A DNA stretch of 2,870 nt from Naegleria gruberi. Lineage: Eukaryota. The first letter of the stretch is position 1. Every line of letters begins with the position of its first letter. The stretch is from the NCBI GenBank assembly GCA_000004985.1, contig GG739242.1. One strand, written 5' to 3'. This document shows, piece by piece, positions 1 to 2,870 of this stretch. A model generated the notes under the pieces. That model made no database searches and had not been told where the DNA came from. It worked only from the letters and a program-made list of their open reading frames with translations. A program made the translations under genes and the position numbers.

Positions 1-184
1 AGTTTACAAAGCAATCAAACATTAAAAATGTCACAAATGGTCATGTTATGTGACGTGTTGGTTGGAAACAATTCTAAACAATAAGATTATTAATAGATTA
101 TTTCTATTTTGAATATTTGGGAAAATCTCTTCATTGAATTGGTGAGAAAGGAAAAATGTTGAGACTTTTTGATGGTTGGTGAGA

Positions 185-190
185 TTTAAT
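185..190 (-). promoter_or_regulatory. Candidate poly(A) signal variant ATTAAA on the minus strand, about 170 nt after the stop.
   Basis: Plus-strand tttaat at 185-190. No canonical AATAAA (plus-strand tttatt) occurs in 1..356. This is a weak motif-only call. Confidence 0.15.
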
Positions 191-321
191 ACAAACACTT
201 AAAAGAACATTGTAGTAGACTTTCTGGAATACACAAAAGAGTTACCATCATACAATGATTGTATCAAATATTATTAGAAATGGTTGTTGTCTGAATAGTA
301 AATGGAACAACTCTAATTGTT

Positions 322-350
322 GACGCCATTTTTTTACTGTTATTGGCGCC
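322..350 (-). promoter_or_regulatory. GC-rich stem-loop in the 3'UTR, 7 nt downstream of the stop codon. It forms a 7-bp stem and 15-nt A-rich loop on the mRNA strand.
   Basis: The plus strand reads GACGCCA-tttttttactgttat-TGGCGCC. On the minus (mRNA) strand this is GGCGCCA AUAACAGUAAAAAAA UGGCGUC, giving 7 contiguous pairs including one G.U wobble. On the plus strand the same position is an A.C mismatch. It is the most GC-dense spot in the flank. Confidence 0.3.
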
Positions 351-356
351 AAATCT

Positions 357-918
357 TTAAAGATGGATTGTGAAGATTAATTGATTCAATGCTTGAGTTA
401 TTTGTTTGAAGGTTGGTCTGTTGTGGGGATTTTGATCCCAACATTGTTTCATGAGGTCAATGTATTGAGAGCATACTTTCGAATAATTTAAATCACTTTC
501 GATTGATTTCACATATTCTCCAATCCAAGTTTCTAGCTCAGTTGAGTTATTCCAGGGAATATCTGGTCTCTCACCTTTCACTACTCTCATTGGTATTGAA
601 AAGGAAAATTGTTGCAGATCTCCTTCTCTACTATCCAATGTATTCGAAATGACTTTCCTCATCTTGATCGAATTCGAAGGATAGTAAGGTTTCTCCTCAA
701 AGAATAATTCATACATTATCATACTAAAACTATAAACATCAATTGCACTTCCAATTTCATGTCCACTTCCAATAATTTCTGGAGCCATATACAGAAAAGT
801 TCCCAAGTTCATTGTCATGGTTGAGCTTCCTGAACTTGAAGTCAATTTGGATAATCCAAAATCACATACTTTGGGATTCAAATTTGAATCTAGTAAAATA
901 TTGCCTGGTTTCAAATCT
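357..918 (-). CDS. Receptor-like TKL kinase, exon 2. Covers the catalytic loop (R)DLKPGN, DFG, activation loop, APE and C-lobe to the C-terminus, including the TAA stop at 357-359.
   Basis: Translation gives RDLKPGNILLD (Asn codon 900-902), KVCDFGLS (DFG at 855-863), YMAPE, DVYSFSMIMYEL (subdomain IX), KGERPDIP and CWDQNPHNRPTF (subdomain XI). It ends ..FTIHL then TAA. All invariant kinase residues are present. Confidence 0.85.
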
Positions 919-1338
919 CTATTTTTCAATAAATTCTCAATTGACCAAAAAAAAAACGTACCTATGAATGAGTGCTCTTGGTTTCAGTGAATGTAAATAA
1001 TCCATACCACTTGCAATTCCTTTCAAAATTTCAATCTTACTTTTCAAATCAAGATTTTTCCTTCCACATTTGCATTGTGCAATAATAGAATCTAAACTTC
1101 CATTTTCCAAATATTCCACAACCATATACTTGTTAGTATTCGAAAGGGTAACCCCATAAAACCTCACAATACTTGGATGCCTCAAGCTATTCAAAAGGCT
1201 TGCCTCATGTTCAAACTCATCATTGGATATCTCACTACTTTCAGTCTTGATACTTTTCAGCGCAACTTTAGTTTCGTTCCAATTTGCTAAAAAAACAGTA
1301 CCCATCGCTCCTTCCCCAATTCTCTTTACAATTTCAAT
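375..1338 (-). other. Protein kinase catalytic domain (TKL-like, predicted active), interrupted by the intron at 919..961.
   Basis: Subdomains I through XI are recognisable in order: GxGxxGxV, VALK, alphaC Glu, H|RDLKPGN, DFG, APE, DxYSF, CW..P..RP. KVCDFGLS and DVYSF are typical of the TKL group, including Raf/MLK-like and amoebozoan TKLs. Confidence 0.85.
919..961 (-). other. Spliceosomal intron, 43 nt, GT..AG, phase 2. Sense strand: GTACGTTTTTTTTTTGGTCAATTGAGAATTTATTGAAAAATAG.
   Basis: Exon 1 ends ..ATT CAT AG (His at 964-966, AG at 962-963). The minus-strand donor is GTACGT at 961-956 and the acceptor is TAG at 921-919. Joining AG to A(918) gives AGA, so the spliced sequence reads H-R-D-L-K-P-G-N, the universal kinase catalytic loop. 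Without splicing the frame runs HRYVFFLVN then TGA (937-939) and the HRDLKPGN motif is destroyed. Confidence 0.8.
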
Positions 1339-2870
1339 ATCTTCTATTGGAATAATAATATTACTAGCATTGGAGGTCAGTAAATTAATCAAGAGTGGTG
1401 ATTCATCTCCAAATACGAATTGCTTGTCAATTAATTTAAAAGCAATTTTCTTCTCCTTTCGTTCTCTGTTATAGAACTTGATGAGGGTCTGAACTATTTT
1501 AATGCATGACACAATTCCAATAATTAATAGCACCAATAAAATGGTAAATCCGAAAACAGCTGCCAAAATAATTGCAGTATGTGCTTTGAAAACACAAACT
1601 CCTGTGGAAGTATCAATTGAATAATCAAAAGGACACTTCTCCACTTGAATTCCAATTTTAAATGAAAAATCTCTGTCTACAAATTGAACTGTCACATTCA
1701 CAAGTTCTTGTTTGTCAGTCAGTTTCGTATTTTGAATAAAGATATTGAATACAGTATTGTTATAGAGATCTAATGAATTTGTAACAATTCTGTGTGTACT
1801 GTTTGAATTTAAGGAAATGGAAGGAGGAGTTAGGGAATTTTGTAAAGTATTATTGAAATAGTCAATTAGTGAAAATGAGACAGTTACAGATTGGCCTGGA
1901 TAGAGAGAAATGATATTGAATTCATTAGAACTGAATGGAGTTTCTCTTCCAATAATTCTATACTCTACACTTTGCAAATTTCTAGATCCAATATGAGTAA
2001 TGGAAAGTTTAGGTTCTTGATTCGGCAAGGTTCCATAGAAAACCACATCTCCAGAATAGCTTGCCTTATTATTAATAAATTGATTGGATTCTCCAAACAA
2101 GCACTCATTAAAACAAATCCCTCCTTTCACTGCATGATTGTTTTGAAACTTTGATTTACTGAAAAAACCATACGAATCTGAATAAACTATTCCTCCACTT
2201 CCACATTCTACAAGGTTATTACAATCGAAAAATCCAGAAAGTGCTTCATTTGAAATGAACTCAGAGTTGAAATCTGAAAATGTAGCTCCTTTCAAATAAA
2301 ATACACCTCCATTTGCAGCTCTATTCGAAACGAACTTACAATCAGATATTTTCAAATTAGTATTAATTGAGTTAATGACCCCTCCATTATCTCCTATATT
2401 GTCTTGAAATATCGAAAATGCAATTTGTATATAAAAAATAACTCCCTCCAAAAATGTAGGATTCGTTACTCGAATAGGTTTTACATTTCGAATAAAATTG
2501 CATGCTTCCATTTGAGTGGCAGCCACATATTCTAAAGAGAGTGCATTCAAACTGTTTGAGAAATTAGAATTCGCTACTACTAATTGTTGTGTTCCTACTA
2601 TTGATAGAGAACTATTCATTGTGAAATTTGACATTAAAACTTCAAAACTTGTCGTTCCAATCTCAAGAATTGATGAATTGATAAAACTAGATAGAGTAAT
2701 GATGGAATTAATTCCTCCTCTCAAATCCAACTGTGAATCGAGTATTGTTGATGAAATAATTGAAATAGCTCCTAATTCATTCTGAACAGAAGTGGAAACT
2801 ATATTCGAATCTTCAAAAGTACATCCACGTAAGGATTTAATCTTACTCTTCTTAATATCACAATTTCTAT
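962..2870 (-). CDS. Receptor-like TKL-family Ser/Thr protein kinase, exon 1 (5'-partial). Covers the ectodomain, transmembrane helix, juxtamembrane region and kinase N-lobe up to the His of HRD.
   Basis: The minus-strand frame is continuous and stop-free from 2870 down to 964 (my translation of 2731-2870: ..RNCDIKKSKIKSLRGCTFEDSNIVSTSVQNELGAISIISSTILDSQLDLRGG..). The ORF-track start at 2730 is a TTG codon inside this frame, not a true ATG. The translation contains GEGAMGTV (glycine loop), VALK (beta3 Lys, codon 1255-1257), the alphaC Glu and ..YLHSLKPRALIH. The exon ends CAT AG|GTACGT, with the donor G at 961. Confidence 0.85.
1501..1575 (-). other. Single transmembrane helix, AIILAAVFGFTILLVLLIIGIVSCI, followed by the stop-transfer cluster KIVQTLIKFYNRERKEKK.
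   Basis: This is the only long hydrophobic segment, 25 uncharged residues. A Lys/Arg-rich stretch lies immediately C-terminal (positive-inside rule), so the kinase is cytoplasmic and the N-terminal part is extracellular. Confidence 0.75.
1576..2870 (-). other. Extracellular or lumenal ectodomain (partial; continues beyond the window). Rich in N-x-S/T sequons and predicted beta-rich.
   Basis: N-glycosylation sequons include NSS, NFT, NSS, NFS, NNT, NST, NNT and NVT. The region is Ser/Asn/Thr/Ile/Phe-rich with alternating hydrophobic patterns typical of beta-strands. A membrane-proximal Cys pair, C..13 aa..C, lies at 1594..1635. Confidence 0.6.
2026..2418 (-). repeat. Protein-level tandem repeats of Pmp (polymorphic membrane protein) type: FxxN ... 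GG[AV][IF], about 25-residue period, at least 5 copies. Predicted parallel beta-helix.
   Basis: The repeats are FQDNIGDNGGVI, FVSNRAANGGVFY (NGGVFY confirmed at 2296-2313), FISNEALSGFF / FDCNNLVECGSGGIVY, FQNNHAVKGGICF and FINNKASYSGDVVFY. The FxxN Asn positions are spaced 25, 25, about 37 (with an extra degenerate copy) and 23 residues apart. A second, shorter-period F-x-N-S-x-L..G repeat (SFINSSILEIG / SNFTMNSSLSIVG / SNFSNSLNALSLEY) lies N-terminal at about 2524..2688. Confidence 0.5.

What the first reader, a model, noticed from the sequence alone, without database searches (positions are those of the whole stretch)
2026..2418. Bacterial-type Pmp repeats in a eukaryotic intron-containing gene, a candidate for ancient horizontal acquisition or convergent beta-helix
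The 25-residue periodicity, with Asn of FxxN and the Gly-Gly pair recurring in register, is visible directly in the translation. The repeat type is predominantly bacterial (Chlamydiae and others). The gene itself is clearly eukaryotic, with a GT-AG intron, N-glycosylation sequons and a eukaryotic protein kinase (ePK). That makes the ectodomain a candidate for horizontally acquired adhesin material later fused to a kinase, or for a lineage-specific expanded surface-receptor family.
Basis: partly seen in the sequence, partly recalled or inferred. Interest (0 to 1): 0.55.

Follow-up and report, generated by a model that had tools for sequence, protein, structure and literature searches.

The report
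Pmp-repeat beta-helix receptor kinase, Naegleria-like
The flagged stretch really does encode five adhesin-type "Pmp" repeats, which form part of the outer beta-helix domain of a membrane-spanning protein kinase from a Naegleria-like amoeba; this domain combination seems undescribed, but there is no usable evidence that it was acquired from bacteria.

Summary
On the minus strand, window 2038-2415 encodes five FxxN...GG(V/I)x units spaced about 25 residues apart. They score 62 bits against a Pmp-unit HMM built without Naegleria sequences, versus at most 11 bits for 500 shuffles. They also align collinearly with PF02415-positive proteins (hhalign probability 99.8%). The direct Pfam Chlam_PMP score is below threshold (13-14 bits against a cutoff of 20.6).

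The only relative with the whole ectodomain is a Naegleria gruberi "predicted protein". Its ectodomain is 43-50% identical and its kinase 87% identical.

- Convergence is unlikely.
- No family expansion is seen.
- Horizontal transfer cannot be tested. The repeat-region tree is unresolved, and the best hits mix methanogen archaea with likely eukaryotic contigs.
- Base composition is uniform across the gene.
- N-glycosylation sequons occur at chance frequency.

Pmp repeats in eukaryotes are already known. The fusion to a kinase is a modest new variant.

The parts
962..2868 (-). Coding exon 1. It is open to the window edge, so the 5' end and any signal peptide lie outside the window. It encodes the ectodomain, transmembrane helix, juxtamembrane segment and kinase N-lobe up to ..IH(R).
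   Evidence: Open frame of 644 codons. The spliced product is 822 aa.
2434..2841 (-). N-terminal degenerate beta-helix rungs (aa 10-145). Only faint xNxF/CxF..N traces remain, and no Pmp score is detectable.
   Evidence: AF2 pLDDT is 78-97 with short strand triplets. The Pmp-unit HMM scores at shuffle level. Identity to N. gruberi P0001 is 43%.
2356..2415 (-). Pmp unit 1 (aa 152-171): SIFQDNIGDNGGVINSINTN
   Evidence: 9.9 bits, i-E 4e-5.
2281..2352 (-). Pmp unit 2 (aa 173-196): KISDCKFVSNRAANGGVFYLKGAT. This is the best-conserved unit.
   Evidence: 25.9 bits, i-E 3.5e-10. Translation checked.
2176..2268 (-). Pmp unit 3 (aa 201-231), with a 12-residue Cys-bracketed loop (FDCNNLVEC) inserted between FISN and GGIV.
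   Evidence: 7.2 bits. Both Cys are invariant with N. gruberi. pLDDT is lower in the loop, 58-75.
2107..2160 (-). Pmp unit 4 (aa 237-254): SKSKFQNNHAVKGGICFN
   Evidence: 9.1 bits. Pfam Chlam_PMP gives 14.1 bits on this segment, below threshold.
2038..2085 (-). Pmp unit 5 (aa 262-277): NQFINNKASYSGDVVF. The GG is degraded to SG.
   Evidence: 8.3 bits.
1579..2025 (-). Membrane-proximal stalk (aa 282-430). It is beta-rich, carries conserved Cys412 and Cys425, and has no family assignment.
   Evidence: No Pfam or NCBIfam hit. No similarity in the top 150 Pmp relatives. AF2 pLDDT is 27-66. Identity to P0001 is 50%.
1501..1578 (-). Single transmembrane helix: TAIILAAVFGFTILLVLLIIGIVSCI. A basic stretch follows (KIVQTLIKFYNRERKEKK), so the kinase should face the cytoplasm.
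   Evidence: Translation. The orientation is inferred from the positive-inside rule.
1339..1500 (-). Cytoplasmic juxtamembrane segment (aa 457-510).
   Evidence: 75% identical to P0001.
962..1338 (-). First part of the protein kinase domain (aa 511-635 and the first two bases of the Arg636 codon). It contains GEGAMG, VALK and H-R.
   Evidence: Pfam Pkinase 2.3e-56 and PK_Tyr_Ser-Thr 2e-53, continuous across the splice junction. Motifs located.
919..961 (-). 43-nt spliceosomal intron, GTACGT...AATAG, phase 2, inside the Arg codon of HRD.
   Evidence: Removing it restores IHRDLKPGNILL and one open frame to the stop codon. Unspliced, the frame stops after HRYVFFLVN. The N. gruberi gene model ends at ..IHR, the same point.
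357..918 (-). Coding exon 2. It holds the rest of the kinase (D of HRD, DFG, APE, and a C-lobe about 40 residues longer than the Pfam model) and the stop codon at 357-359.
1..356 (.). 3' flank (UTR or intergenic), GC 29%, with no recognisable feature.
   Evidence: No Rfam family or tRNA. Only short ORFs. Composition.

Best explanation
The window holds most of a gene for a type I, single-pass transmembrane receptor-like kinase from a heterolobosean amoeba. Its closest known relative is in Naegleria gruberi.

[quoted passage not shown] That helix forms the outer part of the ectodomain. After it come an unassigned beta-rich stalk, one transmembrane helix, a conserved juxtamembrane segment and a catalytically intact TKL-group kinase.

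Proposed mechanism: the rigid beta-helix displays a fast-evolving surface that binds an extracellular ligand, most plausibly a glycan or surface polymer of prey or substrate. Occupancy or clustering is then passed through the membrane to the conserved kinase.

Shown here:
- the repeat type and the predicted fold;
- the gene structure and domain order;
- intact catalytic motifs;
- the contrast between fast ectodomain evolution and slow kinase evolution.

Inferred:
- surface location and orientation;
- ligand binding;
- signalling.

The origin of the Pmp module (vertical or transferred) is left open. It is old and fully domesticated.
For: Repeat type:
- The profile of the two Naegleria ectodomains finds 3531 proteins at E <= 1e-3 and 320 at E <= 1e-10. 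All except P0001 match only profile columns of about 145-282.
- 12 of 12 hits tested carry strong PF02415 matches, as do 35 of 42 hits.
- The independent unit HMM gives 62.1 bits against at most 11.4 for shuffles.
- hhalign gives probability 99.8% and E = 5e-28 over 134 columns.

Fold:
- AF2 pLDDT is 78-98 for aa 10-277.
- Pmp repeats are known to form one beta-helix rung each (PMC11166332, PMC10715098).

Kinase:
- Pfam Pkinase 2.3e-56.
- The closest solved structure is the Raf-like TKL kinase CTR1 at 5e-39.
- GxGxxG, VAxK, HRD, DFG and APE are all present.

Gene structure: the intron restores HRD.

Receptor-like evolution: identity to N. gruberi P0001 is 43-50% in the ectodomain and 87% in the kinase.

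Precedents:
- Protist single-pass transmembrane kinases with lineage-specific ectodomains (PMC10463195).
- Trichomonad Pmp-like proteins with a single transmembrane helix that raise adhesion (PMC6701047).
Against: - Direct Pfam Chlam_PMP scores are below the gathering cutoff: 12.9-14.1 bits here and 15.8 in the orthologue, against 20.6. NCBIfam gives nothing.
- The canonical GGA(I/L/V) motif is absent from the window.
- The N-terminus is outside the window, so a signal peptide, and hence surface exposure, is untested.
- AF2 is known to over-predict confident beta-solenoids for repeat sequences (bioRxiv 10.1101/2024.10.30.621056). For aa 1-145 the alignment was effectively two sequences deep.
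- Trichomonas Pmp-HA fusions localised to the ER rather than the surface (PMC6701047).
- There is no ligand, expression or activity data.
Confidence: 0.72

Rival explanations
1. Horizontal origin. A fragment of a bacterial or archaeal Pmp-type adhesin was acquired by a heterolobosean ancestor. It lost its prokaryotic export and anchor modules and was fused to a host transmembrane helix and TKL kinase.
For: - Pmp repeats are very abundant in prokaryotes. The hits that carry an organism name are prokaryotic, mostly methanogen archaea plus one Chloroflexi MAG, apart from one Ascophyllum record.
- Outside the two Naegleria proteins, only the repeat region has relatives. The N-terminal rungs, the stalk and the kinase fusion have none.
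- HGT has been proposed for trichomonad Pmps (PMC6701047).
Against: - No donor is identifiable. The window region is 35-40% identical to many unrelated Pmp proteins and only 43% identical to its own orthologue. The NJ bootstrap gives no sister above 12 of 100.
- Several top hits lie on sparse, eukaryote-like contigs, next to BIR, LRR_8, LolA_2nd_metazoa, Asteroid_N or ANF_receptor genes, or in a cluster that includes an Ascophyllum record.
- A Tetrahymena protein in PDB 7W5Z matches the family profile at 1.8e-20.
- GC and GC3 of the repeat region match the neighbouring ectodomain.
- The architecture is shared with N. gruberi, so any transfer would be ancient.
Confidence: 0.2
2. Convergent beta-helix. 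The FxxN/GG periodicity arose independently under the geometric constraints of a beta-solenoid, and the region is not homologous to Pmp repeats.
For: - The conserved positions (F, N, A, GG, hydrophobic) are the structural ones.
- The Pfam model itself does not reach threshold.
- The canonical GGA motif is missing.
- Identity to any Pmp protein is only 27-40%.
Against: - Five consecutive units align collinearly with five units of many PF02415 proteins.
- The single sequence reaches E = 1e-17 to 1e-18 at a library size of 1.8 billion.
- hhalign gives 99.8%, and shuffles never approach the observed score.
- The other beta-helix Pfam families seen in the hits, such as PF13229 Beta_helix and PF05048 NosD, did not match the window's ectodomain.
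Confidence: 0.05
3. Member of a lineage-specific, expanded and variable surface-receptor family, analogous to Entamoeba TMKs or the Trichomonas Pmp/BspA expansions.
For: The ectodomain diverges much faster than the kinase, 43-50% against 87% identity. That pattern is typical of diversifying receptors.
Against: - Only one other protein (N. gruberi P0001) shares the ectodomain in the word-indexed search, the exhaustive search and the full-length search at E <= 1e-40.
- Scans of metagenome and prokaryotic genome contigs found no relative.
- None of the top 150 Pmp relatives has a kinase.
Confidence: 0.1
4. The beta-helix is a tethered carbohydrate-active enzyme (lyase, hydrolase or epimerase) rather than a passive binding module. 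The kinase would then report on, or regulate, that activity.
Against: - Those matches are at 7-14% identity and reflect the generic fold.
- No catalytic family is detected by Pfam.
- The sequence-level relatives are Pmp-type adhesin-like proteins.
- No catalytic residues could be assessed.
Confidence: 0.08

Closest known systems
Naegleria gruberi 'predicted protein' (P0001, 636 aa; NCBI/UniRef)
   Same: The same ectodomain from end to end (46-47% identity over 98% of it), the same Cys pattern, and the same transmembrane helix, juxtamembrane segment and kinase N-lobe (87% identity). It is the likely orthologue, or a close paralogue.
   Different: The gene model stops at ..IHR, exactly where the window's intron begins, so its second kinase exon appears to be unannotated. 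It keeps canonical GGAI/GGAV in three units. Its precomputed Pfam annotation lists only the kinase.
Chlamydial polymorphic membrane proteins (Pmp autotransporters; Pfam PF02415 repeat)
   Same: Alternating FxxN and GG-hydrophobic tetrapeptides, about one pair per 25 residues, each pair forming one rung of a right-handed beta-helix. They act as adhesins (PMC2997323, PMC11166332, PMC10715098).
   Different: - The window has no Pmp middle domain and no C-terminal autotransporter beta-barrel (no Pfam hit).
- Only five recognisable units are present.
- GGA is replaced by GGV or GGI.
- The Pfam score is below threshold.
- The protein is anchored by an alpha-helical transmembrane segment and coupled to a kinase.
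- It is a eukaryotic gene with an intron.
Trichomonad Pmp-like proteins (TvPmp; Handrich et al. 2019, PMC6701047)
   Same: Eukaryotic proteins with N-terminal Pmp repeats in which the prokaryotic export modules are replaced by a single transmembrane helix near the C-terminus. Over-expression increases adhesion.
   Different: - Trichomonad proteins have short cytoplasmic tails with endocytic motifs and a conserved ATPITK motif. Here the cytoplasmic part is 366 residues with a kinase, and no ATPITK is seen in the sequence.
- The trichomonad family is expanded (48 genes in T. vaginalis), whereas this one is not.
Protist single-pass transmembrane Ser/Thr/Tyr kinases and plant receptor-like kinases (Yin et al. 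2023, PMC10463195)
   Same: An ectodomain, one transmembrane helix and a TKL-like kinase, with lineage-specific sensor domains recombined with conserved kinases. The closest solved kinase here is plant CTR1, and LysM and CERK1 receptor kinases are also among the hits.
   Different: That paper does not mention Pmp, 'polymorphic', 'beta-helix', 'pectin' or Naegleria. I found no description of a Pmp beta-helix sensor joined to a kinase.
Archaeal (methanogen) adhesin-like proteins with Pmp repeats plus Ig-like domains
   Same: They are among the best-scoring named relatives of the repeat region: Methanobacteriaceae, Methanosphaera and Methanomicrobiales MAG proteins. A beta-helix followed by a beta-rich stalk-like region is a shared layout.
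   Different: - They are much longer, with dozens of units.
- Their Big_1, Big_3_5 and CarboxypepD_reg domains are not detectable in the window's stalk.
- They have no kinase.
Trypanosomatid DGF-1 (bioRxiv 10.64898/2026.07.27.741050) and Tetrahymena 7W5Z chain U2
   Same: Both are eukaryotic membrane proteins with beta-helix regions. DGF-1, from another Discoba lineage, has large extracellular right-handed parallel beta-helix modules. The Tetrahymena chain, from a ciliate, matches the Pmp-region profile at E = 1.8e-20.
   Different: DGF-1 uses PbH1-type 'rib' modules and 7-9 transmembrane helices, and was reported absent from N. gruberi. Neither protein has a kinase.

Membership tests
Pmp-type repeat family (Pfam PF02415 Chlam_PMP / IPR003368) | The protein reaches the Pfam gathering score (20.6 bits) for PF02415. 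| tested here: not met
   12.9 bits (E 0.15) for the region and 14.1 bits (E 0.058) for unit 4-5. There is no hit when the whole ectodomain is scanned. Orthologue P0001 scores 15.8 bits. The NCBIfam library gave no hit of any kind.
Pmp-type repeat family (Pfam PF02415 Chlam_PMP / IPR003368) | Repeated, paired FxxN and GGA(I/L/V) tetrapeptides at regular spacing of about 25 residues. | tested here: inconclusive
   FxxN occurs five times in register. The GG motif occurs four times but as GGVI, GGVF, GGIV and GGIC, with SGDV in unit 5, so none is canonical GGA. Spacing is 25/25/37/23. The orthologue has three canonical GGA(I/V) motifs. Non-canonical partners are also accepted in the literature (PMC10715098).
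Pmp-type repeat family (Pfam PF02415 Chlam_PMP / IPR003368) | Significant sequence or profile similarity to bona fide PF02415 proteins, above composition-matched controls. | tested here: met
   - 3531 hits, with a top E of 7.9e-35.
- All 12 hits tested are PF02415-positive at 33-174 bits.
- The unit HMM scores 62.1 bits against a shuffle maximum of 11.4.
- hhalign gives 99.8% and E = 5e-28.
- phmmer gives E = 2.9e-18.
Pmp-type repeat family (Pfam PF02415 Chlam_PMP / IPR003368) | [quoted passage not shown] | tested here: met
Chlamydial Pmp autotransporters (type V secretion) | A Pmp middle domain and a C-terminal autotransporter beta-barrel. | tested here: not met
   No Pfam hit other than kinase families at E <= 10. 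The C-terminal half is a transmembrane helix plus a kinase.
Chlamydial Pmp autotransporters (type V secretion) | An N-terminal Sec signal peptide. | not testable with these tools
   The 5' end of the gene lies outside the window. The N. gruberi model also starts inside the beta-helix.
Trichomonad Pmp-like type I membrane proteins | Pmp repeats, then a single transmembrane helix near the C-terminus, with a short tail carrying endocytic motifs and a conserved ATPITK motif (PMC6701047). | tested here: not met
   A single transmembrane helix is present at aa 431-456. However, it is followed by 366 residues including a kinase, and no ATPITK is seen in the sequence.
Eukaryotic protein kinase, TKL-like receptor kinase | A complete ePK domain with the catalytic motifs GxGxxG, VAxK, HRD, DFG and APE. 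| tested here: met
   Pkinase 2.3e-56 covers model positions 2-259 of 263. The motifs are GEGAMG, VALK, HRD, DFG and APE. The best solved match is the Raf-like TKL kinase CTR1 at 5e-39, followed by Eph receptors and the TKL kinases MLT/ZAK and TAK1. The TKL assignment rests on nearest solved relatives, not on a kinome phylogeny.
Eukaryotic protein kinase, TKL-like receptor kinase | One transmembrane helix between the extracellular domain and the kinase, with type I topology. | tested here: inconclusive
   A 26-residue hydrophobic helix is followed by a basic cluster. Topology is inferred from the positive-inside rule. The signal peptide cannot be seen.

The most novel reading that the evidence does not exclude
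Heteroloboseans built a previously undescribed class of eukaryotic receptor kinase by coupling an adhesin-type Pmp beta-helix, possibly of ancient prokaryotic origin, to a TKL kinase. The amoeba would then sense bacterial-prey or substrate surface polymers with the same scaffold that bacteria and archaea use to adhere.
Probability: 0.2. Interest if true: 0.55.

Novelty: new variant of a known kind. Interest (0 to 1): 0.33.

Why it matters
If the protein is a working surface receptor, it adds a new sensor type to the receptor kinases of eukaryotes: a Pmp-type parallel beta-helix. It would also give Naegleria, a bacterivore with a pathogenic relative, a candidate molecule for recognising prey, substrate or host surfaces.

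The case also shows that the Pfam Pmp model misses diverged eukaryotic members, and that the N. gruberi gene model is probably truncated at a conserved intron.

It does not provide a usable case of bacterium-to-eukaryote transfer, because the repeats carry almost no phylogenetic signal.

Tried and rejected
- **Direct family scans.** Pfam gives only sub-threshold Chlam_PMP scores, and NCBIfam gives no hit.
- **Naive autocorrelation** within the 131-aa region is not significant on its own (p = 0.235). The first attempt at this script timed out.
- **Full-length homologue search.** I set the cutoff too strictly (E <= 1e-40). It shows only that no close relative other than P0001 exists. It does not enumerate more distant kinase paralogues.
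- **Third homologue search** with the 21-sequence repeat profile returned only short, mostly unnamed metagenomic proteins, so it gave little taxonomy.
- **Cluster look-ups** named few hits.
- **Genomic context of P0001** is not on record.
- **Collection scans for relatives or the source contig** found nothing:
  - metagenome contigs with the ectodomain profile;
  - metagenome contigs with an exact 33-mer;
  - prokaryotic genome contigs with the repeat region;
- **Solved structures.** The two-sequence profile gave no hit. Only the broader Pmp profile reached 7W5Z_U2 and Rhombotarget A.
- **Foldseek** against PDB gave only weak beta-helix matches, best E = 1.8e-3. The afdb50 library was unavailable.
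- **Phylogeny.** The first run, on 182 segments, timed out. The 40-taxon run is unresolved.
- **Shared Cys-loop search.** Only one of the 155 hit-set sequences, P0046, has a similar loop, so it is not a usable synapomorphy.
- **Other features.** Rfam, tRNA and tandem-repeat scans of the window were negative in the region. Plus-strand ORFs over the region are short (87 aa or fewer), and nothing suggests they are genes.
Full report
**Gene model**

The only long open frame is on the minus strand and runs off the window's right edge. Read without splicing, it ends after ..IHRYVFFLVN. A second minus-strand ORF then begins with ..RDLKPGNILL.

Removing 43 nt (919-961, GTACGT...AATAG) joins cat-ag|a-gat into IHRDLKPGN. 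This gives a single 822-codon frame ending at a TAA stop (357-359). Pfam Pkinase (2.3e-56) and PK_Tyr_Ser-Thr (2e-53) then match continuously across the junction, covering model positions 2-259 of 263. The intron is therefore real.

The gene is incomplete at its 5' end. Window GC is 32%.

**Checking the observation**

The finding's span, 2026-2418, corresponds to aa 151-281.

- FxxN occurs at aa 154, 179, 204, 241 and 264.
- GG occurs at aa 162, 187, 225 and 249, with SG at 272.
- The register is broken once, by a 12-residue insertion (FDCNNLVEC) in the third unit.
- That break is why a naive lag autocorrelation inside the region is not significant (p = 0.235). Over aa 1-300, lag 25 beats all 1000 shuffles.

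For a proper test I built a 25-residue Pmp-unit HMM.

- It was seeded on eight units that Pfam itself assigns to PF02415 in non-Naegleria proteins.
- It was then iterated on 155 such proteins.
- The flagged region scores 62.1 bits, against a shuffle mean of -3.4 and maximum of 11.4 (0 of 500).
- The N-terminal 150 residues, the stalk and the kinase all score at shuffle level.
- Five units are delimited: aa 152-171, 173-196, 201-231, 237-254 and 262-277, which is window 2038-2415.
- One caveat applies: the 155 proteins were themselves retrieved with the Naegleria profile.

No DNA-level tandem repeat exists in the region.

**Is it a Pmp repeat?**

Direct model scans say 'not quite'. Chlam_PMP scores 12.9-14.1 bits here and 15.8 bits in the orthologue, against a cutoff of 20.6. 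NCBIfam finds nothing. Every other test says yes:

- An exhaustive HMMER search of 1.84 billion representatives, using the two-sequence ectodomain profile, gives 3531 hits at E <= 1e-3 and 320 at E <= 1e-10. Apart from the N. gruberi protein, all match only columns of about 145-282.
- All 12 hits that I scanned carry PF02415 at 33-174 bits.
- The window's 136-residue region alone reaches E = 2.9e-18 at that library size.
- The five units align collinearly with five consecutive units of 19 other proteins at 27-37% identity.
- hhalign of the Naegleria pair against those 19 gives probability 99.8% and E = 5e-28 over 134 columns.

Independent convergence is therefore unlikely. The window lacks canonical GGA(I/L/V) (it has GGVI, GGVF, GGIV and GGIC), so it is a diverged member.

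**Structure**

An AF2 model of aa 1-430 was built from a 45-row alignment.

- It gives pLDDT 78-98 for aa 10-277 as a stack of short strand triplets.
- The stalk (aa 278-430) has low confidence, 27-66.
- Foldseek finds the same class only weakly.

So the Pmp units are the last rungs of a longer beta-helix whose N-terminal rungs have lost the motif. This agrees with published models in which each FxxN/GGA pair is one rung (PMC11166332, PMC10715098). AF2 can over-predict solenoids for repeats (bioRxiv 10.1101/2024.10.30.621056). For aa 1-145 the alignment is essentially two sequences deep.

**The rest of the protein**

- **Stalk.** Aa 282-430 are beta-rich, with conserved Cys412 and Cys425 and no family match.
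- **Transmembrane helix.** Aa 431-456 form one hydrophobic helix followed by a basic cluster.
- **Kinase.** GEGAMG, VALK, HRD, DFG and APE are all present. The closest solved structure is the Raf-like TKL kinase CTR1 (5e-39). Next come Eph receptor tyrosine kinases and the TKL kinases MLT/ZAK and TAK1, with LysM and CERK1 receptor kinases further down.

The layout is that of a type I receptor-like kinase. Topology and surface exposure are inferred, because the signal peptide cannot be seen.

**Relatives and source**

The only protein sharing the whole ectodomain is a Naegleria gruberi 'predicted protein' (P0001).

- It is 46% identical over 98% of the ectodomain and 57% identical overall.
- By segment, identity is 43% (N-terminal rungs), 47% (Pmp units), 50% (stalk), 59% (transmembrane helix), 75% (juxtamembrane segment) and 87% (kinase N-lobe). 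This is the pattern expected for a receptor with a fast-evolving sensor and a constrained signalling module.
- P0001 ends at ..IHR, exactly at the window's intron. Its second exon is probably unannotated and the intron position is probably conserved.

The source organism is not in the searched collections. It is presumably another heterolobosean, or an unannotated paralogue.

None of the top 150 Pmp relatives contains a kinase, the stalk or the N-terminal rungs. An expanded family is therefore not supported. My full-length search used a strict cutoff (1e-40), so distant kinase paralogues were not enumerated.

**Origin**

The premise that the repeat is 'predominantly bacterial' is dated. Fewer than a third of PF02415 proteins are chlamydial and about 200 are non-bacterial (PMC11166332). 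The motif is documented in Methanobrevibacter, Phycisphaerae and Trichomonas (PMC10715098, PMC6701047).

Among the hits here, those that carry an organism name are:

- methanogen archaea;
- one Chloroflexi MAG;
- one Ascophyllum nodosum record.

Several of the best hits lie on long, sparsely coding contigs with eukaryote-type neighbours:

- P0003 sits next to BIR and LRR_8 genes.
- P0044 sits on a 1.09-Mb contig beside LolA_2nd_metazoa genes and a tandem Pmp paralogue.
- P0032 sits next to Asteroid_N and ANF_receptor genes.
- P0153 and P0046 lie on 819-kb and 171-kb sparse contigs.

The family profile also matches a Tetrahymena protein in PDB 7W5Z (E = 1.8e-20) and bacterial Rhombotarget A (2.9e-11).

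A neighbour-joining analysis of 40 five-unit segments (126 columns, 100 bootstraps) gave little resolution.

- It recovers the two Naegleria sequences as a pair in only 66 replicates.
- It gives no sister group above 12.
- The window is 43% identical to its orthologue but up to 40% identical to unrelated proteins.

The repeats are saturated toward a structural consensus, as was also noted for trichomonads (PMC6701047). GC and GC3 of the repeat region (0.32 and 0.24) match the rest of the ectodomain. Horizontal acquisition is neither supported nor excluded. If it happened, it predates the split from N. gruberi.

N-glycosylation sequons, cited as eukaryotic evidence, occur at chance frequency and are absent from the Pmp region.

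**Mechanism and comparison**

The best-supported reading is a receptor-like kinase. Its rigid beta-helix presents a variable binding surface for a glycan or surface polymer, given what this fold usually binds, and the conserved TKL kinase signals. The binding and signalling steps are inferred.

The protein works like protist transmembrane kinases and plant receptor-like kinases in layout (PMC10463195), and like Pmp and trichomonad Pmp-like adhesins in its sensor (PMC2997323, PMC6701047). It is not a chlamydial-type autotransporter, because it has no middle domain or beta-barrel. It is not a trichomonad-type Pmp protein either, because it carries a long kinase-bearing tail.

I found no description of a Pmp beta-helix fused to a kinase in the literature searched.

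**Verdict**

This is a real feature with the repeat type correctly recognised. It is a modest new variant: an unannotated sensor-kinase architecture confined, so far, to Naegleria-like amoebae. The horizontal-transfer, convergence and expansion readings are unsupported.

Noticed in passing
window 919-961 and P0001 C-terminus: The N. gruberi gene model (P0001, 636 aa) ends at ..SLIHR, exactly where the window's 43-nt intron starts. The public model therefore probably lacks its second kinase exon, and the intron position is probably conserved between the two species.
   Followed up: partly
P0011, P0014, P0030, P0031, P0045, P0046, P0050, P0054, P0059; L001 6001-18045: A subgroup of the Pmp-repeat hits (1259-2346 aa, about 2-3% Cys) ends in 3-6 hydrophobic, transmembrane-like segments. 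P0046 sits on a sparsely coding 171-kb contig next to a 2009-aa tandem paralogue. This beta-helix plus multi-pass layout recalls trypanosomatid DGF-1 (bioRxiv 10.64898/2026.07.27.741050). Its organism is unknown.
   Followed up: partly
L007 8001-13546 (ENA ERZ21788760, 1.09-Mb contig); L003: Two tandem Pmp-repeat genes (889 and 900 aa) lie beside four LolA_2nd_metazoa genes. The best non-Naegleria hit, P0003, comes from the same sample and sits near BIR and LRR_8 genes. This suggests Pmp-type beta-helix proteins in an animal or other eukaryotic genome deposited as a metagenome.
   Followed up: partly
window 2203-2223 (aa 216-222): Pmp unit 3 carries a Cys-x5-Cys loop (DCNNLVEC) just before the GG, invariant in N. 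gruberi. Of the 155 hit-set sequences searched, only P0046 has a similar loop (CKHDVLCGYGG) at the aligned position. It may be a disulfide-stapled surface loop, or the match may be coincidence.
   Followed up: partly
PDB 7W5Z chain U2 (Tetrahymena thermophila complex IV dimer): A 3634-aa 'Transmembrane protein, putative' in a solved mitochondrial respiratory complex matches the Pmp-region profile at E = 1.8e-20 (residues of about 2984-3097). This is an unexpected cellular context for this repeat type.
   Followed up: no
window 387-918 (kinase C-lobe, aa 637-813): The kinase domain spans 300 residues against 258 matched model positions. The C-lobe therefore carries about 40 extra residues, between the APE region and the CW..P..RP motif. 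Its function is unknown.
   Followed up: no
window 1579-2025 (aa 282-430): The membrane-proximal stalk is conserved with N. gruberi (50% identity, with a CPFDY...C motif). It has no detectable relative in Pfam, NCBIfam or the top 150 Pmp proteins, and it folds with low confidence. It may be an orphan domain.
   Followed up: partly
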